Source: an uncultured archaeon
GTDB lineage: Archaea > Asgardarchaeota > Thorarchaeia > Thorarchaeales > Thorarchaeaceae
NCBI GenBank assembly: GCA_964610875.1
Contig: CAZSWP010000002.1
Span: 32,001-96,000 of the forward strand
Reading direction: 5' to 3'
Length of the DNA: 64,000 bases
Position 1 is the first letter of the stretch, and every line of letters begins with the position of its first letter. Positions 2,168-27,948 of the stretch are shown in pieces. The translations under genes were made by a program, and so were the position numbers. The notes beneath the pieces were generated by a model that was not told where the DNA came from, ran no database searches, and was given only the letters and a program-made list of their open reading frames with translations.

Positions 2168-4033
2168 ATGAAAAGGCGAGTTCTTAGCGGGAATGAAGCA
2201 TTTGTCAGAGGTGCGCTCGAAGCAGGGATTGGATTCTGTGCTTCATACCCTGGCACACCTGCAACAGAGATTGCAGCAAATCTCATGGCTGTATCAAAGG
2301 AACATCAGCTATATGTTGAATGGAGTGTGAATGAGAAAGTCGCATTGGAAGCATGCGCTGGTGCAAGCTGGATGGGCGTGCCTGCATTATGTTCGATGAA
2401 ATCACTAGGTCTGAATGTTGCAGCTGATTTCTTACTGAACCTGAACCTGTCAGGAAGTGGTCCAGGAGGGTTGATTCTAATTGTGAGTGATGATCCCCAT
2501 GGACATAGTTCTAGCAATGAACAGGACTCAAGATTCTATGCTAGGGAATCATATCTTCCACTTCTAGAACCATCAGATTTCCAGATGGCAAAGGATATCA
2601 TTCCAATAGCCCTTGAAACCTCACGAAAACATGAGATACCTGTTATAATCAGAAGCACAACTCGATTGAGTCATTCCCGTGGTCTTGTCGAGCTAGGACA
2701 GATTCCAGAGAGGTTTTGGAGTCTTTCCAAGGAATTCCCTGACAATCTGTTCAATATACCTGCACCACATTTGAAGCACAAAGACCTCCTTGATAAACTA
2801 GAGGTGGTTCAAGATCAGTTCATGCATCTGGAACATAATACTCTTCCAGAGAAAAATAAAGATGGACTACTTGTATTGACCACAGGTATTTGTAGTTCAT
2901 ATAGCCGTGAAGCTTTAGATATTATAGGATTTGACAAGAGATTCAATTTTGACCTAATTACAACCAACCCAATCCCAAAACAACTAGTGTCCAAGATGTT
3001 TCAGGATTTTGAAAAAATATTAGTTGTAGAAGAAGTTGACCCATTTGTAGAAGATATCTTACGAGTAATGGCATCACTTTCAGATCAAACTCCCAAAATT
3101 TATGGGAAAAGGACTGGTCACATCCCATCCTATGGGGAATTGAATACGGATATTGTTATCGATGCCCTATCAAAAATTGCTCATGTACAGTATGAGCAAC
3201 GCTCTCACAAACTGCGAAACCCTATAGAATCTGCATCAGATTTACTTGTAGCAAGACCTCTTGCTTTCTGTCCTGGATGTACTCACCGAAATTTCTACTG
3301 GGCTATTCAAAAAGTAAGAAGACGTCTTGGCGGCAAGTTGATAGTTTCTGGAGATATTGGATGTTACTCACTTGGCATATTCTATAACAGGTCAATGAAT
3401 TCAATGCATGCTATGGGCTCAGGGATTGGAGCTGCGAACGGGCTTGGACAGCTACATCGCTGGGGGCAGGATTCAAAAATTGTTGCAGTGGCAGGAGATT
3501 CCACATTCTTTCATGGGTGCTTGCCAGGACTAGTCAATGCCAGACATCACAATACAGACCTGACATTTGTCATATTGGATAACAGAACAACTGCAATGAC
3601 CGGGTTTCAGCCGCATCCAGGTTCATATACTGAAGAAGAAACGAAGAAGGATGTGAGCATAGAAAAGATGGTTGCTGCGGTCGAGCCGGATTTTTTGGAT
3701 CGCATCGACAGTGAAGATATTGACACCCTGATAGATAGATTACATAGTACGGTGAATAAGAAAGGACTCAAAGTGTTAATTGTGGAAAGCGTATGCAGAC
3801 TTGAGGAGAAAAAGAGAACAAAAGGACGGCAAAACTACTCTGTGGTAGAGATTGATTATTCAAAGTGCCTAGGAGAAGATTGCAGAATCTGTGTCCGTGA
3901 TTTTGGATGTACTGCAATGAGCTGGAACAATACAAAACAAGTACCAGAGATAGTAGAGGACATGTGCATAAGATGTGGTTCTTGTATTCCAATCTGCCCT
4001 CATGGTGCAATTGGAGGTGTTGAGAATGACTGA
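2168..4033 (+). CDS. iorA: Indolepyruvate:ferredoxin oxidoreductase alpha subunit
   Basis: SGNEA, YPGTP, WSVNEKVALE, NEQDSR, FCPGCTHR, GDIGCY, GDSTFFH, LDNRTTAMTG, and C-terminal ferredoxin Cys motifs. Confidence 0.93.
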   Translation: MKRRVLSGNEAFVRGALEAGIGFCASYPGTPATEIAANLMAVSKEHQLYVEWSVNEKVALEACAGASWMGVPALCSMKSLGLNVAADFLLNLNLSGSGPGGLILIVSDDPHGHSSSNEQDSRFYARESYLPLLEPSDFQMAKDIIPIALETSRKHEIPVIIRSTTRLSHSRGLVELGQIPERFWSLSKEFPDNLFNIPAPHLKHKDLLDKLEVVQDQFMHLEHNTLPEKNKDGLLVLTTGICSSYSREALDIIGFDKRFNFDLITTNPIPKQLVSKMFQDFEKILVVEEVDPFVEDILRVMASLSDQTPKIYGKRTGHIPSYGELNTDIVIDALSKIAHVQYEQRSHKLRNPIESASDLLVARPLAFCPGCTHRNFYWAIQKVRRRLGGKLIVSGDIGCYSLGIFYNRSMNSMHAMGSGIGAANGLGQLHRWGQDSKIVAVAGDSTFFHGCLPGLVNARHHNTDLTFVILDNRTTAMTGFQPHPGSYTEEETKKDVSIEKMVAAVEPDFLDRIDSEDIDTLIDRLHSTVNKKGLKVLIVESVCRLEEKKRTKGRQNYSVVEIDYSKCLGEDCRICVRDFGCTAMSWNNTKQVPEIVEDMCIRCGSCIPICPHGAIGGVEND

Positions 4034-22721: not shown

Positions 22722-25652
22722 ATGTCTGAAAAGAAACCCAAAGGAATCGTGATTAGTGAAACGCACTGGGACCGTGCATGGTACTTGACATTCCAACAAT
22801 TTAGATTGAAATTAGTAAAACTCACAGATAAGCTTCTGAATATTCTAGAGAATGACCCTGCGTTTACGCACTATACATTCGATGGACAGACAGTAGTTCT
22901 TGAGGATTATCTTGAAGTAAAACCAGAGAACGAAGAAAGAATTAGAAAATTAGTAAAAAACTCCAGGATTCACATAGGTCCCTGGTATGTGCTCCCAGAC
23001 GAGTTTCTTGTATCAGGAGAAGCTTTGATCAGAAATCTATTGATAGGACGTGGTATTGCAGAACTGTTCGGAGAATGCATGGATGTCGGATACATTCCAG
23101 ATCCATTTGGTCATGTTAGTCAAATACCACAGATACTCAATCAATTCAATTACGATTCTGTGATTTTTGCAAGAGGTATGGGAGAAGAAGCAGAGGAGTT
23201 GGGGTCTGAGTTCATCTGGAAAGCATCTGATGGCAGTAGCATTTTTGCACATTGGCTACCTCAGTCATATGGTAATATTGCATCACTTCCAGAAGATGTG
23301 GATGATGCGGTTTCCGTAATTGAAGAGATGATAGGTAAGCTTGAACCTTGGTCGAAGACAGATGTTCTCTTGTTAATGAATGGTTCAGATCATCTTGAAC
23401 CTCAGAAACACATTCCAAAGGTAGTGGAAACCTACAATGAACAGCATGAGAGATATATCAAAATAGGAACGCTTCAGGAATTCGTAGAGTATATTCGGAC
23501 AATGAAAGGAGAGCTTAAAGAATACTCTGGAGAGTTTAGAGAACCACGGTTTCAGAATCTTCTATCGGGAGTATATTCAGCAAGAATCTATCTCAAACAG
23601 GCCAATGAATATTCTCAAAGATATCTTGAACGAATGGTAGAACCTTGGTGCACTGCCGCATTGGCATTGGGTGCAGCTTATCCTGCTCATGAATTGCGTA
23701 TGGCTTGGAAATATCTGATAAAGAATCATCCACACGATGATATCTGCGGATGCAGTATTGATCAAGTCCACGATGACATGATGCAGAGATTCAGATGGGT
23801 AGATGAGATTGCTGATGCCTTGTTAGATGAAGCACTGGACTCGGTCCTCTCAGAACTTCAAAACAGTAAACCATCAATTGTAGTATCCAATGCAACACCT
23901 CACACACGTTCAGGAATAGCAGAGATTGAACTAGCTGTTTCAAACATACGTTTTACCAGACTAGGTCAAATTCGTCTCAAAGACCCAGATTATAAAGCAG
24001 ACAATCCATTAGATGCTGCAAGGAATGAAGCACATGTCGCTTACATAAGGACCCACGGATTTGATTTGCCTCCAAATGCGACTAGAGAAATCAAGATGAA
24101 TGGTGAAACGCTCACAGAGTTCGAGTTTGATTTCACAGGACTAGCAATGCTGTTTCCAGAATTAAAGGATTCACTTCGACACCTATCAACGGTGTATAGA
24201 ATCCGAGTAAACTCAAACAATAGAGTAGTAGAGGTATTTGCAAGGAAATATGATGCTTCAGATAAGATGAGAGGCGTTCCAGTCCTATTTGATTCCGAGG
24301 GAAATCAGATTCCAACACAAGTACTAGGATTTTCTGTCATGAAAGATGAGAAGTCACACTTGATCGCAGATCAAGAAGAATTCATCAGGTTGGCAATCAG
24401 TGCGCAAGATGTTCCAGCGCTGGGTATGAAACGTTACAACGTTGATCTCAGAGAACAATCAGATGACGATGTAAATCCAGAAGATGTAGTAAATTGTACT
24501 GAAGAAATCCTGGAAAATGAGTTTGTTATGCTCAGACTTCAAGAAGATAGCAGAATCTCTTTGACCGATAAACGTAATGGAGAGGTCTATAATAACCTGC
24601 TTGAGTTTGAAGATACTGCAGATGTTGGTGATGAGTATGATTATTCACCAGCACATATTCCCGTTGATATAAGATCTGCCGGACAAGAAGTTGCACTGGA
24701 AGTAATTCATGAAGGACCAATTATTGGTTCTTGGTTGCTATCAGGTGCTCTCGAATTACCTATCGCAGCAACAACGGATGATTTGACTAGAGAACAGATG
24801 ACTGAGATTTGTGATTATGTGATGGAAGTCACTCTCATGTCAGGGTCTCCTACTGTCTATGTCACCATTCTGTTTGACAATAGGGCACTTGACCATCGTC
24901 TTAGGGTTTTATGCCCAACTGGTACAAAGACAGAAACTTGTAAAGCAGATAGTACATTTGACATAATCGAGAGGCCTGTACGACCGAAACCTCACGATGA
25001 TTGGGTTCAACCAGTTGTTCCAACATATCCACTCAGAAGCTTTGTCACAGTTCAGGATGAAAAGCGAGGTTTGATGCTTACAACAGAAGGTCTGCTTGAA
25101 TTCGAGATACTCAAAGAACAAGGAAATACTATTGCACTCACATTGCTAAGAGCAGTGGGTTGGTTATCGAAGATTGGATTGAAGACTAGACGGGATGCCG
25201 CAGGACCTGTGTTGGAAACTCCAGGTGCGCAATGCTTAGGCACAAATATCGCGGAATTCGCAATTACACCTTTGGTGGGTGATAGTACACTCGAAGATAC
25301 CTTGAACCACTCAGAAAACTACCTGATCCCATTAGACGGTCACTTTCTACCGGCATCTGATACTAAAGAGGGCGTTTCAGAAATTGGACTAATTGAAATT
25401 ATACCATCACTCATACAATTATCTGCCTTCAAGCAATCAGAAGACGAAAAATGTATCATCCTGCGTTTCTGGAACTCATCACAAGAAACTCAGAAATGTA
25501 AAGTGAAACTGGGATTCTCTGTAAACAAAGTAACATCCTCAAGGATGGATGAAGAAGAGACTGATTGGTACAGTATCAAAAAAGTTGGCGGCAATGAATT
25601 CGAATTCGATATCACAGGTCGCCATGTGGCGACACTCCGATTATACAAGTGA
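22722..25652 (+). CDS. GH38 alpha-mannosidase / mannosylglycerate hydrolase-like protein
   Basis: THWDRAWY, FDGQ, IGPWYVLPDEFLVSGE, PDPFGH, NGSDH, HPHDDICGCSID, TLLRAVGWLS. Confidence 0.9.
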   Translation: MSEKKPKGIVISETHWDRAWYLTFQQFRLKLVKLTDKLLNILENDPAFTHYTFDGQTVVLEDYLEVKPENEERIRKLVKNSRIHIGPWYVLPDEFLVSGEALIRNLLIGRGIAELFGECMDVGYIPDPFGHVSQIPQILNQFNYDSVIFARGMGEEAEELGSEFIWKASDGSSIFAHWLPQSYGNIASLPEDVDDAVSVIEEMIGKLEPWSKTDVLLLMNGSDHLEPQKHIPKVVETYNEQHERYIKIGTLQEFVEYIRTMKGELKEYSGEFREPRFQNLLSGVYSARIYLKQANEYSQRYLERMVEPWCTAALALGAAYPAHELRMAWKYLIKNHPHDDICGCSIDQVHDDMMQRFRWVDEIADALLDEALDSVLSELQNSKPSIVVSNATPHTRSGIAEIELAVSNIRFTRLGQIRLKDPDYKADNPLDAARNEAHVAYIRTHGFDLPPNATREIKMNGETLTEFEFDFTGLAMLFPELKDSLRHLSTVYRIRVNSNNRVVEVFARKYDASDKMRGVPVLFDSEGNQIPTQVLGFSVMKDEKSHLIADQEEFIRLAISAQDVPALGMKRYNVDLREQSDDDVNPEDVVNCTEEILENEFVMLRLQEDSRISLTDKRNGEVYNNLLEFEDTADVGDEYDYSPAHIPVDIRSAGQEVALEVIHEGPIIGSWLLSGALELPIAATTDDLTREQMTEICDYVMEVTLMSGSPTVYVTILFDNRALDHRLRVLCPTGTKTETCKADSTFDIIERPVRPKPHDDWVQPVVPTYPLRSFVTVQDEKRGLMLTTEGLLEFEILKEQGNTIALTLLRAVGWLSKIGLKTRRDAAGPVLETPGAQCLGTNIAEFAITPLVGDSTLEDTLNHSENYLIPLDGHFLPASDTKEGVSEIGLIEIIPSLIQLSAFKQSEDEKCIILRFWNSSQETQKCKVKLGFSVNKVTSSRMDEEETDWYSIKKVGGNEFEFDITGRHVATLRLYK

Positions 25653-25664
25653 CTTGGAAGATGC

Positions 25665-26393
25665 GTGATGAATACTGATTCGATTGAACAAATAGTAATT
25701 GATCATGCACCAATTCTACATTTTCATCCAAATGAGGGACAATTCTGCTGCTATCCTAGTGATGCAGAAGAGGTCTTCGATAAATACTCAGAAAGATGGG
25801 AAGAATTCATAATTGATATGACGCCAAATGATCTGAATCCTGATACTCCAGTCTATTATGAATATTGGAATGACCTGGGCTTTCACCAGATACGATATTG
25901 GTTCTGGTATAAATATAACAGATTCCCAGGTGCGAAGTTCGGTCTCGGTGAACATCTAGGAGACTGGGAACATGTTGAAGTCAGGATATTTGAAAAACAT
26001 GAGAAGCAACCCAAGGTTGTTGTCTGGCTTGTTTCAAATCACCTAGAGTTTCGTATTGCATCCTCACCCAATGAGTTCACACTCAAGGACTATGAAACAA
26101 AGAACCCAATTCTGACAGGAACACAACTCAATACTTGGGTAGCACTGGGATCTCACGCGCATTATCTTGCACCAGATGATGAACCATACTGTGTCTTGAA
26201 GATACTGTGTGATCGATTTTCTGATGGTGGAGAGGTATGGAACACCAGAAATTCACTCATTCCTCTCTCATCGACTAACTTCTATAATTACACTGGTCGT
26301 TGGGGAGACAAGAAAGCACCAAGAAGTCCAACTAACGAGTACAACAACAGATGGCGAAATATTCCTGCTCTAGCGGTCAGACAGAGACTCTAG
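25665..26393 (+). CDS. Vps62/NPP1-like domain protein
   Basis: APILHFHPNE..YPS, IRYWFWYKYN, HLGDWEHV, VALGSHAHY, YTGRWG. Confidence 0.7.
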   Translation: MMNTDSIEQIVIDHAPILHFHPNEGQFCCYPSDAEEVFDKYSERWEEFIIDMTPNDLNPDTPVYYEYWNDLGFHQIRYWFWYKYNRFPGAKFGLGEHLGDWEHVEVRIFEKHEKQPKVVVWLVSNHLEFRIASSPNEFTLKDYETKNPILTGTQLNTWVALGSHAHYLAPDDEPYCVLKILCDRFSDGGEVWNTRNSLIPLSSTNFYNYTGRWGDKKAPRSPTNEYNNRWRNIPALAVRQRL

Positions 26394-26440
26394 TCAGATA
26401 CTTGATGTACTAGTATGTGCATCTATGTACTATATTGCAC

Positions 26441-26460
26441 AATGTTTATAAAAGACCGTC
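26441..26460 (+). promoter_or_regulatory. Archaeal TATA promoter of RNA unit A
   Basis: AATGTTTATAAAAGACCGTC; TATA lies ~27 nt upstream of the closing-stem start at 26474; ATGTAC motif upstream. Confidence 0.65.
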
Positions 26461-26473
26461 ATTGTTCACGCTC

Positions 26474-26698
26474 AACCACTTCCGAGGAAGATTATACAAG
26501 ACAACAAGTCTGTTACAGTGGATTTGCGTTTCTCTTACCTCATTCAAGCGAAGAAGGAGAGAGGGTACCTGTATAATCACCTATCCTCAGCGAATGTACA
26601 TCTTAGCATGGGATTCTGGCGCGTTTCTGAACCAGTTTTGAAAAAGCAGTGGCTTGCTTTCCAAATCCAGCTTGCCTCGGGAGTGGTTCTATTTTCTT
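26474..26698 (+). ncRNA. Putative structured RNA unit A (~215 nt)
   Basis: 14-bp 5'/3' stem AACCACUUCCGAGG/CCUCGGGAGUGGUU, inner helix UGGAUUUG/CAAAUCCA, internal hairpins and a 3' U-rich tract; homologous to unit B. Confidence 0.6.
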
Positions 26699-26724
26699 TA
26701 TCGGGATGTACATATTTGAGCAGT

Positions 26725-26744
26725 AATGTTTAAATGCGGACGTC
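26725..26744 (+). promoter_or_regulatory. Second, homologous TATA promoter (unit B / his operon)
   Basis: AATGTTTAAATGCGGACGTC has the same AATGTTTA...CGTC spacing as the first promoter, 284 nt downstream; ATGTAC motif upstream. Confidence 0.6.
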
Positions 26745-26755
26745 AAAGGAACACC

Positions 26756-26934
26756 TTGAGAGGAATAACAGTGAGGTCTTGCGTTCATCCGAGGCGATTG
26801 TCTTCATTGAAGTCCAGAAGGACATAGACACATCGGGAGAAACACAGGCAGAGATTCCTCCGAATTCTGATTTCTTGAATAGGCTTTTCTTTGTTAGAGA
26901 TGACTCCGTTCGAGAAACATATGGTTCCTCTCAG
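26756..26934 (+). ncRNA. Putative structured RNA unit B / his operon leader
   Basis: Closing stem UGAGAGGAA/UUCCUCUCA and motifs shared with unit A; ends ~15 nt before the hisG start region. Confidence 0.55.
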
Positions 26935-26949
26935 ACATTAGTTTTAGAA

Positions 26950-27948
26950 ATGGTGGTTAATTTGACTACAGTGAAATTTGTAATTCCAAAGGGTCACCTC
27001 ACAGAGGAGAGCATTACACTACTGAGAGCCGCAGGCTACACAATACGTGGTGAAGATCGTACATACAAACCTACTATCAATGACCACCATATCGAGCTTA
27101 GGATTCTCAGACCACAAGAGATTCCAATCTTTGTGGAGGAAGGTCTCCAAGATATTGGAATCACAGGTCAAGATTGGATTGAGGAAACCAAAGCTGATGT
27201 TGTTGAACTTGCGAATCTGGGTTTTGGAACAGTCCGGCTTGTAGTGGCTGTACCCAAAGAGTGGGATGAGATCAACTCGCTTGAAGATCTTTTAGAAAAT
27301 AGAATTGCAACCGGAAAGCAACTCAGAGTGTCAACGGAGTATCTCAACATTGCAAAAAATGCTTTACTTTCTAATGAGGTCTATCAAACAAGTTTCCCAG
27401 GTCTGCAGCCACAGATCATCACACCATGGTGGAAATGCGGAAACAATGAACAGGTGGGAGTATATCTTTCATTCGGAGCAACCGAGGCAAAGACTCCACT
27501 CGCTGCCGATGCAATTGTTGAAGTTGTTGATACAGGTACGTCTCTCAAAAGGAATGGTCTGAAAATTATTCATGAAATCATGTCTTCGTCAGCAGTTCTC
27601 ATTTCGAATAGTAGCGTTCTCGAAAACCCTTCTTCAAGAGAAAAGGTCTATGATATCCTTACACTGCTGCGAGGAGTGATTGAGGGGAGAAGAAAGCTCC
27701 ACATTTTTGTAAATGTGCAGAAGAGAAACCTCAATGAACTCTTAGACAGACTTCCTGCACTCAAATGTCCAACAATATCAGAACTCTCAGACAGCGAGTG
27801 GGTGGCAGTCAATACTATCATTGACAGAGATGAGTACCTCATGATGATTCCGGAGTTAAGGAGATTAGCTCAAGGACTTGTTGTCTATGAACCTAGGCAG
27901 GTCCTCCCACTAGAAAAGGATCTTATCGGAGGCGAGTATATTGAGTAA
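26950..27948 (+). CDS. hisG: ATP phosphoribosyltransferase (long form)
   Basis: IPKG, LRPQEIP, DIGITGQDW, FGATE, DTGTSLKRNGL, C-terminal regulatory domain; start ATG 26950 or TTG 26962 after GGTGG, not 26734. Confidence 0.93.
   Translation: MVVNLTTVKFVIPKGHLTEESITLLRAAGYTIRGEDRTYKPTINDHHIELRILRPQEIPIFVEEGLQDIGITGQDWIEETKADVVELANLGFGTVRLVVAVPKEWDEINSLEDLLENRIATGKQLRVSTEYLNIAKNALLSNEVYQTSFPGLQPQIITPWWKCGNNEQVGVYLSFGATEAKTPLAADAIVEVVDTGTSLKRNGLKIIHEIMSSSAVLISNSSVLENPSSREKVYDILTLLRGVIEGRRKLHIFVNVQKRNLNELLDRLPALKCPTISELSDSEWVAVNTIIDRDEYLMMIPELRRLAQGLVVYEPRQVLPLEKDLIGGEYIE

What the first reader, a model, noticed from the sequence alone, without database searches (positions are those of the whole stretch)
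26441..26934. Two tandem homologous structured RNAs, each with its own promoter, in front of the his operon
Seen: two similar promoters (AATGTTTA-N8-CGTC at 26441 and 26725, each preceded by ATGTAC). About 33 nt downstream of each begins a segment whose ends pair (14 bp, 26474-26487/26675-26688, followed by a U-tract; ~11 bp, 26756-26766/26924-26934). Both units share motifs in the same order: GAGGAA, ACAGUG, UUGCGUU, a 14-nt hairpin loop CAUU(C/G)AAG..AGA closed by AGG(A) (26541-26554 and 26805-26818), UCCUC..CGAAU, and UUUC(U)UGAA. Stems differ in sequence while loops are conserved, as expected for a structured RNA family. Inference: an unrecognised archaeal ncRNA family or riboswitch/attenuator; the UU(C/G)AAG loop could be T-loop-like.
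Basis: partly seen in the sequence, partly recalled or inferred. Interest (0 to 1): 0.88.

Follow-up and report, generated by a model that had tools for sequence, protein, structure and literature searches.

The report
Histidine-sensing frameshift leader before hisG
The stretch before this Asgard archaeon's histidine operon is not two folded RNAs: its second half is a widely conserved leader whose reading-frame layout suggests that a histidine-starved ribosome slips forward twice to reach the first enzyme gene, a way of sensing an amino acid that I could not find published.

Summary
Unit 2 (26756-26950) belongs to a conserved hisG leader family. It is in all 15 hisG-bearing genomes of this Thorarchaeota-like family, in no other Asgard family sampled, and in at least 120 metagenome contigs, probably mostly Bathyarchaeia. 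hisG always lies 130-200 nt downstream.

What is conserved is a reading-frame layout, not RNA loops. A Shine-Dalgarno (SD) sequence and start codon open a short upstream ORF (uORF) with NUU-CAY (His) at codons 5-6. A second NUU-CAY lies 19 nt later, in the +1 frame, which closes 1-3 codons afterwards. The +2 frame then stays open to the hisG start. In 22 lineage representatives it has 0 stops against 72 and 78 in the other frames, and about one fifth as many His codons. One-site variants use the +1 frame.

Best reading (about 0.55): two prfB-like +1 frameshifts at hungry His codons. This is inferred, not shown.

Unit 1 is not recognised by a family profile. It looks like a local duplicate in which an 11-nt deletion removed both His sites.

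There is no Rfam or Pfam match and I found no paper. Earlier follow-ups of this scan reached the same reading on other genomes.

The parts
26706..26713 (+). ATGTACAT palindrome about 15 nt upstream of the TATA box of promoter 2. It may be a transcription-factor site.
   Evidence: Read from the sequence. ATGTAC is kept at the same place in most Thor-family his promoters (alignment). Its function is inferred.
26725..26736 (+). Promoter 2, AATGTTTAAATG (TATA-like TTTAAAT). The predicted transcript start is near 26758-26762.
   Evidence: A conserved TTTA(T/A)A box sits at the same distance from the core in all relatives. The start site is inferred from the usual archaeal spacing and was not measured.
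26758..26765 (+). SD-like GAGAGGAA of the short uORF. It is also the 5' arm of the 9-11 bp pairing with 26925-26933.
   Evidence: GGUGA, GGAGA or AGUGR lies a few nt (about 5-9) upstream of the start in every leader inspected. Inverted repeat I6. Cognate versus non-cognate duplex test, p=0.002.
26771..26827 (+). Frame-0 uORF: GTG AGG TCT TGC GTT CAT ... TAG, 18 codons plus stop, with His at codon 6.
   Evidence: In 107 unique leaders the start is ATG 76, GTG 19, TTG 12 and never CTG. The frame is always open for 15-29 codons.
26773..26788 (+). Proposed shift site 1: SD-like GAGG (26773-76), spacer TCTTGC, P-site codon GTT (26783-85), His1 CAT (26786-88).
   Evidence: N-TT-CAY is invariant in 107/107 leaders. 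The only variation is at the Cys wobble position, the first base of the P-site codon and the His wobble position.
26792..26810 (+). Proposed shift site 2, in the +1 frame: SD-like AGGCG, spacer ATTGT, P-site CTT (26802-04), His2 CAT (26805-07), then the +1-frame stop TGA (26808-10).
   Evidence: His1 to His2 spacing is 19 nt (105 leaders) or 16 nt (2), always 1 mod 3. The +1 frame is open between the sites in 107/107 and closes 1-3 codons after His2 in 104/107 (22/22 representatives).
26806..26961 (+). Long (+2) frame running from His2 to hisG. In this genome it is in phase with hisG, so shifted ribosomes would make an N-terminally extended HisG.
   Evidence: The frame is open to the hisG start in 107/107 leaders (22/22 representatives). 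It has 0/950 stop codons against 72/945 and 78/958 in the other frames. His codons are 6/950 against 30/945 and 27/958.
26855..26866 (+). Conserved box ATTCCTCCGAAT (family consensus YUUCUCCG). It is complementary to the uORF SD region and is followed by T-rich runs (26868-26897).
   Evidence: nhmmer alignment and alignments. The pairing with GAGGAAT was read by eye and is partly supported.
26925..26933 (+). TTCCTCTCA, the 3' arm of the closing pairing with 26757-26765, just upstream of the hisG ribosome-binding site.
   Evidence: I6, 9 nt, 100% complementary.
26962..27948 (+). hisG (ATP phosphoribosyltransferase, long form). The likely start is TTG 26962, preceded by GGTGG; ATG 26950 is the alternative. 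The frame is open back to ATG 26734.
   Evidence: Pfam HisG 1.5e-39 and HisG_C 1e-15. The start was placed by alignment with relatives.
26425..26452 (+). Unit 1 promoter copy: ATGTAC, 11 nt, then CACAATGTTTATAAA.
   Evidence: D2. It is the best-conserved part of the duplication.
26474..26700 (+). Unit 1 body: a degenerate copy of the leader bounded by the 14-nt inverted repeat (26474-87/26675-88) and a T-rich tract (26691-26700). It has no N-TT-CAY site inside.
   Evidence: It is not detected by the family profile and is single-copy in the genome.
26518..26733 (+). 71-codon open frame of unit 1. It starts at the GTG homologous to the uORF start. An 11-nt deletion relative to unit 2 joins it in frame to the homologue of the long frame. 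Its stop TAA (26731-33) abuts ATG 26734.
   Evidence: The interval from ACAGTG to TCATT is 19 nt in unit 1 and 30 nt in unit 2. P(open) in shuffles is 0.011. Whether it is translated is unknown.

Best explanation
Unit 2 (about 26758-26961) is the 5' leader of the his operon mRNA. It belongs to a conserved archaeal family that most likely senses charged tRNA-His through the ribosome.

Proposed sequence of events:
1. A ribosome starts at GTG 26771 on a short upstream ORF (uORF).
2. With histidine plentiful, it reads His1 (26786-88) and stops at TAG 26825, far from hisG.
3. With His-tRNA scarce, it waits with GUU in the P site and CAU in the A site. An SD-like GAGG lies a few bases behind. The ribosome slips +1 onto UUC.
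4. Six codons later, in the +1 frame, it meets the same signal (CUU-CAU, 26802-07). It either decodes His and stops at once (TGA 26808), or slips +1 again.
5. The resulting +2 frame has no stops and few His codons. It carries the ribosome to the hisG start. In most relatives this frame ends a few bases past the hisG start codon. In this genome it runs in phase into hisG.
6. That raises his operon expression, either by translational coupling or by shielding the nascent RNA from premature termination.

What is shown: the family, its tie to hisG, and the three-frame layout. What is inferred: the slipping itself and the way it raises hisG expression.

Unit 1 is a local, degenerate duplicate of promoter plus leader that has lost both His sites.
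For: Family and context:
- The core is shared by 5 relatives in blastn and by all 14 other hisG-bearing genomes of the family.
- It occurs once per genome, only in hisG-bearing genomes of this family, and in 0 of 314 other Asgard genomes.
- At least 120 metagenome loci carry it. All 102 with enough downstream DNA have hisG 130-200 nt downstream.

Frames, in 107 unique leaders:
- The start codon is ATG, GTG or TTG, never CTG.
- The two His codons are 19 or 16 nt apart, always 1 mod 3.
- The +1 frame is open between the sites in 107/107 and closes 1-3 codons after His2 in 104/107.
- The +2 frame is open for 31-59 codons and stops near the hisG start in 103; the other 4 are in phase with hisG.

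In 22 lineage representatives:
- Stops in the +2, 0 and +1 frames are 0/950, 72/945 and 78/958. The chance of an open frame in shuffles is 0.08.
- His codons are 6/950, 30/945 and 27/958, as expected for a frame that must be read during His shortage.

Entry into the long frame by ordinary initiation is unlikely in several lineages. Ten of the 107 leaders, in at least 5 lineages, have a +2-frame stop between the sites or no +2-frame start before His2; 2 have no canonical start at all. L266 is a further case.

Both repeats vary only at the Cys wobble position, the first base of the P-site codon and the His wobble position.

An unbiased hisG-based sample of Bathyarchaeia gave 8 two-site leaders. 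It also gave 3 one-site variants in which the frame reaching hisG is the +1 frame of the His uORF.

Each site has a purine-rich SD-like run about 4-6 nt before the N-UU-C-AY, as in prfB.

The Atkins 2016 review (PMC5009743) describes hungry-codon +1 shifting and states that no natural use of it for starvation-specific products was known.
Against:
- Most leaders (97/107) also have a possible start of their own in the long frame: GUG at -10 and/or UUG at +8.
- His1 is CAC more often where CAU would create a long-frame stop: 16/23 against 10/84 sequences. This is not significant by lineage, but it hints that the long frame may also be read across site 1.
- GUU to UUC re-pairing leaves a first-position mismatch for tRNA-Val.
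- The SD-like spacer (about 4-6 nt) is longer than in prfB (3 nt).
- The hisG ribosome-binding site is not consistently sequestered in predicted folds, so how the long frame raises hisG expression is open.
- Pairwise alignments of the variable part showed no excess of gaps that are multiples of 3, though those alignments were gap-rich and unreliable.
- The metagenome set was collected with a pattern that fixes much of the core. The start-codon and core statistics are therefore partly ascertained; the frame statistics are not.
Confidence: 0.55

Rival explanations
1. Conventional leader-peptide control without frameshifting. The short His-containing uORF is a stalling sensor. The long frame is an ordinary second uORF with its own start (GUG -10 or UUG +8). 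A ribosome stalled at His1 changes RNA pairing, initiation on the long uORF, or premature transcription termination, and so changes hisG expression.
For: - 97/107 leaders have a candidate start in the long frame before His2.
- There is a CAC/CAU bias where CAU would close the long frame.
- The 5' ribosome-binding region pairs with the downstream leader in a lineage-specific way.
- A GAUUGC/GCAAUC hairpin with a few compensatory changes occurs in about half the leaders.
- T5 runs lie after the conserved box in several Thor-family leaders.
- One relative (L263) has a plain uORF with two His codons that itself overlaps the hisG start.
Against: It does not explain:
- the second His codon in the +1 frame, kept in 107/107 leaders;
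- the 1-mod-3 spacing;
- the closure of the +1 frame right after His2;
- the leaders with a long-frame stop between the sites or with no long-frame start;
- the one-site variants whose hisG-reaching frame is +1.

In the Thor family the SD is spaced for the frame-0 start only. A single His codon is a weak stalling sensor compared with known attenuators.
Confidence: 0.22
2. DNA operator. The tandem direct repeats (TTGYSTTCAY, twice, 19 bp apart) just downstream of the transcript start bind a transcription factor that represses the his promoter.
For: Two near-identical 10-12 bp direct repeats lie close to the promoter and are conserved at the nucleotide level across two phyla. Archaeal repressors often bind at or just downstream of the TATA box and start site (general knowledge).
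Against: It gives no reason for the start codon, the frame layout, the stop-free and His-poor long frame, or the one-site variants. Variable positions coincide with codon wobble positions. A 3-bp deletion in the spacer (L013, L016) changes helical phasing but keeps the reading-frame register.
Confidence: 0.07
3. Structured regulatory RNA. Each unit is a folded ncRNA or riboswitch with conserved loops that binds histidine, tRNA-His or another ligand. A T-box-like pairing of CAY with the tRNA-His anticodon is one version.
For: Closing inverted repeats exist in both units. There is some lineage-specific 5'-3' complementarity. CAY in both repeats could pair with the GUG anticodon.
Against: No Rfam family matches, even at E<=10. 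The consensus fold of 14 family leaders is -4 kcal/mol with almost no covariation. The region after the core is hypervariable in sequence and length but strictly stop-free in one frame. Unit 1 is not a family member.
Confidence: 0.06

Closest known systems
Bacterial prfB (release factor 2) autoregulatory +1 programmed frameshift (AGGGGG-UAU-CUU-UGA-C)
   Same: An SD-like purine run lies a few bases upstream. The P-site codon is of the N-UU type and can re-pair one base forward. [quoted passage not shown] The frame-0 reading ends early.
   Different: The slow codon here is a sense codon (His), not a stop. Two sites act in series in most members. The shifted frame is a non-conserved passage in a leader rather than the body of the regulated protein. 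The spacer is about 4-6 nt rather than 3. The organisms are archaea. Nothing has been tested experimentally.
Enterobacterial his operon attenuator (hisL leader peptide, Rfam RF00514)
   Same: A short uORF with His codons at the head of the his operon lets the translating ribosome report His-tRNA supply.
   Different: There is one His codon per frame instead of a run of seven. No terminator/antiterminator hairpin set was found. The Rfam model does not match. The proposed read-out is a change of reading frame, not a choice between RNA hairpins.
Yeast Ty1 +1 frameshift (CUU-AGG-C) and 'hungry codon' frameshifting in E. coli (Gallant; reviewed in PMC5009743)
   Same: A +1 slip of peptidyl-tRNA on N-UU occurs when the A-site codon waits for a scarce aminoacyl-tRNA.
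   Different: Ty1 uses a constitutively rare tRNA to set a fixed ratio of products. Hungry-codon shifting in E. coli is regarded as an error. Here the layout suggests it is used as the sensor of a biosynthetic operon, which the review says was not known.
T-box leaders of bacterial his genes
   Same: A cis-acting leader of his genes that could read tRNA-His charging.
   Different: There is no specifier loop or T-box sequence, no Rfam match, and the features are reading-frame features.

Membership tests
Two-site His leader of archaeal hisG (undescribed family defined here) | Lies 130-200 nt upstream of a long-form hisG, just downstream of a TATA box | tested here: met
   Unit 2: GTG 26771 lies 179-191 nt before the hisG start. 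Family data are (102/102 loci).
Two-site His leader of archaeal hisG (undescribed family defined here) | SD plus start codon, then N-UU-CAY at codons 5-6, and a second N-UU-CAY 19 (or 16) nt later in the +1 frame | tested here: met
   Unit 2: 26771-26807. Family: 107/107. Unit 1 fails this: it has no N-TT-CAY inside 26474-26700, and a profile search does not find it.
Two-site His leader of archaeal hisG (undescribed family defined here) | The +1 frame closes within 3 codons of His2, and the +2 frame is open to the hisG start | tested here: met
   Unit 2: TGA at 26808-10, and the +2 frame is open and in phase with hisG. Family.
prfB-type +1 programmed frameshift site | SD-like element a few nt upstream of the shift codon | tested here: met
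   GAGG-N6-GUU and AGGCG-N5-CUU in the window. AGGUGA-N4, AGGUGG-N4 and GGGGGG-N4 in the one-site variants. This is sequence-level evidence only, and the spacing is longer than in prfB.
prfB-type +1 programmed frameshift site | P-site codon whose tRNA can re-pair in the +1 frame | tested here: inconclusive
   N-UU followed by C is invariant. CUU to UUC re-pairs well. GUU or AUU to UUC leaves a first-position mismatch. A tRNA-Leu(GAG) gene is present, but no tRNA-Val was found in this incomplete genome.
prfB-type +1 programmed frameshift site | Ribosomes actually change frame at a rate set by A-site decoding | not testable with these tools
   Needs reporters, ribosome profiling or mass spectrometry.
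Bacterial his leader-peptide attenuator (Rfam RF00514) | Run of consecutive His codons in the leader peptide | tested here: not met
   There is a single His codon in the frame-0 uORF.
Bacterial his leader-peptide attenuator (Rfam RF00514) | Match to the covariance model; alternative terminator/antiterminator hairpins | tested here: not met
   No match at gathering threshold or at E<=10. The consensus fold is -4 kcal/mol.
Riboswitch / structured ncRNA | Conserved secondary structure supported by covariation | tested here: inconclusive
   RNAalifold gave 9 pairs, 2 of them with double changes, at -4 kcal/mol. The alignment-free cognate-duplex test supports some 5'-3' pairing (p=0.002). No aptamer-like core was found.
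T-box leader | Match to the Rfam T-box model (specifier loop, T-box sequence) | tested here: not met
   No hit in the Rfam searches.

The most novel reading that the evidence does not exclude
The his operon of Bathyarchaeia and of one Asgard (Thorarchaeota-like) family is switched on by two successive +1 ribosomal frameshifts at hungry His codons in a leader uORF. This would be an amino-acid sensor built from prfB-like shift sites, and the first natural use of hungry-codon frameshifting as a regulatory device. In this genome, a tandem duplicate of the leader with the sensor deleted and the frames fused (unit 1) may add a histidine-independent route into hisG.
Probability: 0.5. Interest if true: 0.92.

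Novelty: new variant of a known kind. Interest (0 to 1): 0.85.

Why it matters
I know of no experimentally established leader-peptide control of amino-acid biosynthesis in archaea. The standard review of recoding (PMC5009743) states that no natural use of starvation-induced ('hungry codon') frameshifting was known.

If the reading holds, this leader would show three things:
- The ribosome can report tRNA charging by changing frame rather than by stalling over a hairpin.
- Two sites in series can sharpen the response.
- The device has spread with the his operon across archaeal phyla.

It also matters for annotation. The 404-codon 'HisG' open frame from ATG 26734 and the small ORFs in these leaders are likely to be mis-called by gene finders.

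The model makes concrete, cheap predictions: a trans-frame peptide, effects of codon swaps, and the rule that the number of sites equals the frame offset.

Tried and rejected
Only L050 and L058 were real.
- the pairwise-alignment test for gaps that are multiples of 3 in the variable leader gave mod-3 counts of 1850, 2901 and 2132. There was no excess of in-frame gaps, but the alignments were gap-rich and single-linkage clustering collapsed to one cluster. I treat it as uninformative.
- a script gave no answer and was repeated.
- Rfam, at gathering threshold and at E<=10, gave only a chance sR35 hit (E=2.3).
- Pfam on five long-frame peptides gave nothing.
- a search for analogous tandem cassettes with other codons in G000 and in five further genomes found only the hisG leader.
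- hisG SD accessibility in predicted ensembles showed no consistent sequestration (unpaired probability 0.0-0.9).
- aragorn found only 16 tRNAs and no tRNA-Val, so the identity of the slipping tRNA could not be checked.
- MITE or decayed-gene readings of unit 1: it is single-copy in the genome and has no protein match.
- A single -1 shift from frame 0 to the long frame was rejected. There is no slippery heptamer, and several leaders have a long-frame stop right at His1.
- Hopping from GUU of site 1 to GUU of site 2 was rejected, because the ribosome would land before the same hungry codon.
Full report
**1. What is in the window**

- Two promoter-like copies, 26441-61 and 26725-45 (71% identity), each preceded by ATGTAC.
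- A 14-nt inverted repeat, 26474-87/26675-88 (93% complementary), followed by a T-rich tract.
- A 9-11 bp inverted repeat, 26757-65/26925-33.
- Collinear short motifs shared by the two halves.

Downstream lie hisG (HisG + HisG_C), hisD (histidinol dehydrogenase), an aminotransferase, and four more overlapping ORFs that I did not annotate. So 'in front of the his operon' is correct. Rfam has no match in the window at gathering threshold, nor in 26380-27000 at E<=10 apart from a chance snoRNA hit.

**2. The two units are not equivalent**

- Unit-to-unit similarity is weak. The best local alignment is only the promoter (z 1.9), and the semi-global score is z 3.5.
- blastn of the whole gap against 40 relatives hit only a 40-nt core of unit 2 (26768-26811) in five genomes.
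- An nhmmer profile of the 14 relatives' leaders finds unit 2 at E=1.7e-23. It does not find unit 1 even at E<=100.
- The gap is single-copy in the genome.

**3. Unit 2 belongs to a large, undescribed hisG leader family**

- In this GTDB family (Thorarchaeota-like, according to earlier notes of the scan), 15 of 86 genomes have this hisG, and all 15 carry the core 170-220 nt upstream of it.
- A motif search of 400 Asgard genomes found it once in each of 15 genomes of this family, essentially the set that carries this hisG. It found nothing in 314 genomes of other families, and no control hits.
All 102 with enough downstream sequence have hisG 130-200 nt downstream.
- Two named records are a Bathyarchaeia MAG and an 'uncultured archaeon'.
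- In a hisG-based, motif-free sample of 71 Bathyarchaeia genomes, 13 have this type of hisG (51-61% identical). Eight of the 12 with upstream DNA carry the two-site core. None of the 8 genomes with a distant hisG type does.

**4. What is conserved is a reading-frame layout**

In 107 unique leaders:
- An SD-like run (GGUGA, GGAGA or AGUGR) lies a few nt (about 5-9) before a start codon: ATG 76, GTG 19, TTG 12, never CTG.
- Codons 4-6 read UGY-SUU-CAY (Cys, Val/Leu, His).
- A second copy of GAUUGYSUUCAY lies 19 nt later (105 leaders) or 16 nt later (2). The spacing is always 1 mod 3, so the second His codon is in the +1 frame.
- The +1 frame is open between the two sites in 107/107. It closes at the next codon (63), the second (22) or the third (19) after His2.
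- From His2 on, the +2 frame stays open for 31-59 codons. It stops within a few bases of the hisG start in 103. In the other 4, including this window, it is in phase with hisG.

Across the variable part of the leader, stops per sequence are 4.15, 3.26 and 0.06 in the three frames. The chance of an open frame in shuffles is 0.08.

With one representative per cluster (22 clusters at 62% identity or less), one search gives:

| Measure | +2 frame | frame 0 | +1 frame |
|---|---|---|---|
| Stop codons | 0/950 | 72/945 | 78/958 |
| His codons | 6/950 | 30/945 | 27/958 |

The peptide of the long frame is not conserved between lineages and has no Pfam match. The frame seems to be kept as a passage, not as a protein.

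Both repeats vary at the same three places: the Cys wobble position, the first base of the P-site codon and the His wobble position. This fits repeat 1 being read in frame 0 and repeat 2 in frame +1.

**5. How ribosomes reach the long frame**

Ordinary initiation is possible in most leaders, at GUG -10 and/or UUG +8 (97/107). It is not possible in ten of them, in at least five lineages. Those have a +2-frame stop at His1 (UCA UAA) or before it, or no start before His2. Two have no canonical start in the whole frame, yet the frame downstream remains open. L266 from the unbiased sample is another such case. In the Thor family the SD is spaced for the frame-0 start only.

The simplest route is therefore two +1 shifts, one at each N-UU-CAY.

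Three one-site variants fit this. In L264, L283 and L274 a uORF with a single N-UU-CAY stops 3-10 codons later. It is the +1 frame of that uORF that runs 27-59 codons to the hisG start. So the number of His sites equals the offset of the frame that reaches hisG.

Each site is preceded at about 4-6 nt by an SD-like purine run (GAGGG, AGGCG, AGGUGA, AGGUGG or GGGGGG). The invariant N-UU-C lets a G34 tRNA exchange a G-U wobble for a G-C pair one base forward. This is the anatomy of the prfB site (AGGGGG-UAU-CUU-UGA), with a His codon in place of the stop. That comparison rests on established knowledge summarised in PMC5009743. The same review says that no natural use of hungry-codon shifting for starvation-specific products was known. 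Two further literature searches found no paper on an archaeal hisG leader.

**6. The window's own copy**

| Element | Coordinates |
|---|---|
| SD-like GAGAGGAA | 26758-65 |
| Start GTG | 26771 |
| Site 1: GAGG / GTT / CAT | 26773-76 / 26783-85 / 26786-88 |
| Frame-0 stop TAG | 26825-27 |
| Site 2: AGGCG / CTT / CAT | 26792-96 / 26802-04 / 26805-07 |
| +1-frame stop TGA | 26808-10 |
| +2 frame | from 26806, in phase with hisG |

By alignment hisG starts at TTG 26962, preceded by GGTGG; ATG 26950 is the alternative. The same frame is open back to ATG 26734, which overlaps the TATA box of promoter 2.

**7. What remains uncertain**

- The slipping itself is inferred, and I could get no expression data.
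- His1 is CAC more often where CAU would close the long frame: 16/23 against 10/84 sequences. By lineage this is roughly 8:3 against 8:12 and not significant. It hints that the long frame may sometimes also be read across site 1.
- The step from long-frame translation to hisG expression is open. The hisG ribosome-binding site is not consistently sequestered in predicted folds. Two options remain. One is termination-reinitiation at the overlap. The other is shielding of the nascent RNA from premature termination; T5 runs follow the conserved YUUCUCCG box in several Thor-family leaders.
- RNA structure is at most an accessory. The consensus fold of 14 family leaders is -4 kcal/mol. A GAUUGC/GCAAUC hairpin with a few compensatory changes exists in about half of the leaders. 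The uORF ribosome-binding region pairs better with its own downstream leader than with those of other lineages: -18.0 against -16.4 kcal/mol, permutation p=0.002.
- A gap-length test was uninformative.
- No analogous cassette with other codons exists in this genome or in five others.

**8. Unit 1**

Unit 1 keeps a good promoter copy and the ACAGTG..TTGCGTT..TCATT(C/G)AAG..AGAAGGA motif order. Between ACAGTG and TCATT it has 19 nt where unit 2 has 30. The 11-nt loss removes both His sites and joins the GTG (26518) in frame to the homologue of the long frame.

That frame is open for 71 codons; P(open) in shuffles is 0.011, and the other frames have 2 and 4 stops. It ends with TAA 26731-33 directly against ATG 26734, which opens unit 2's long frame in phase with hisG.

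There is no properly spaced SD before GTG 26518, and the 14-nt inverted repeat plus T tract lies inside the frame. Whether unit 1 is a relic, a separate small transcript, or a histidine-independent route into hisG from promoter 1 cannot be decided from one genome.

**9. Relation to earlier notes of this scan**

After I had reached this reading, a word search of the scan's notes showed that follow-up agents on other genomes had reached the same 'histidine-sensing frameshift leader' reading. Those notes cover two-site leaders and one-site variants in other archaeal lineages. They are unchecked AI notes, not independent evidence. I tested the two-site layout myself here, but not their other cases.

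**10. Verdict**

There is a real, undescribed his-leader family, but it is ribosome-read rather than a folded ligand-binding RNA, and only unit 2 belongs to it.

- Confidence in the family and the frame layout is high.
- Confidence in the tandem +1 frameshift mechanism is about 0.55.
- It is a new variant of known kinds: prfB-type regulatory frameshifting combined with leader-peptide sensing.
- It is of high interest because it is directly testable.

Noticed in passing
window 26405-26412, 26425-26432, 26594-26601, 26706-26713: ATGTAC(A/T) elements; ATGTACAT is a perfect palindrome. They recur four times in the gap. One sits about 15-20 nt upstream of the TATA box in both promoter copies and in most Thor-family his promoters. 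This could be a transcription-factor site that adds a transcriptional layer of his control.
   Followed up: partly
window 26518-26736: Unit 1's 71-codon open frame ends with TAA directly abutting ATG 26734. That ATG opens a 404-codon frame running through unit 2 into hisG. Gene callers will probably annotate a 404-aa 'HisG' with a spurious 72-76 residue N-terminal extension.
   Followed up: partly
L004 (G022:C489), about 1500-1700: A relative carries a leader-like two-site cassette (GGCGGCUGC variant, long frame open for about 48 codons). It is not followed by hisG. Small GTPase-like ORFs follow instead, and no hisG was found in that genome. This may be a relic leader or a rearranged or chimeric contig.
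   Followed up: partly
family-wide: This hisG type and its leader are patchy in the Thor-like family (15/86 genomes) and absent from the other Asgard families sampled. Both are common in Bathyarchaeia at 51-61% protein identity. This suggests that the operon and its leader moved together between phyla. No tree was built.
   Followed up: no
L263 (G430:C50): One Bathyarchaeia hisG has a tRNA-like sequence (not scanned) just upstream and a different leader. A 35-codon uORF with two His codons itself overlaps the hisG start, with no frame change needed.
   Followed up: partly
L155 (Ga0124853_1454009) 1201-1235 and 3112-3146: Two copies of the leader with short hisG 5' fragments lie in inverted orientation on one 4.3-kb metagenome contig. 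This is an inverted duplication or an assembly artefact.
   Followed up: no
window 25665-26393: The 242-aa ORF just upstream of the gap has no Pfam match at E<=1e-5. The ORF before it (22722-25652) is a GH38 alpha-mannosidase.
   Followed up: no
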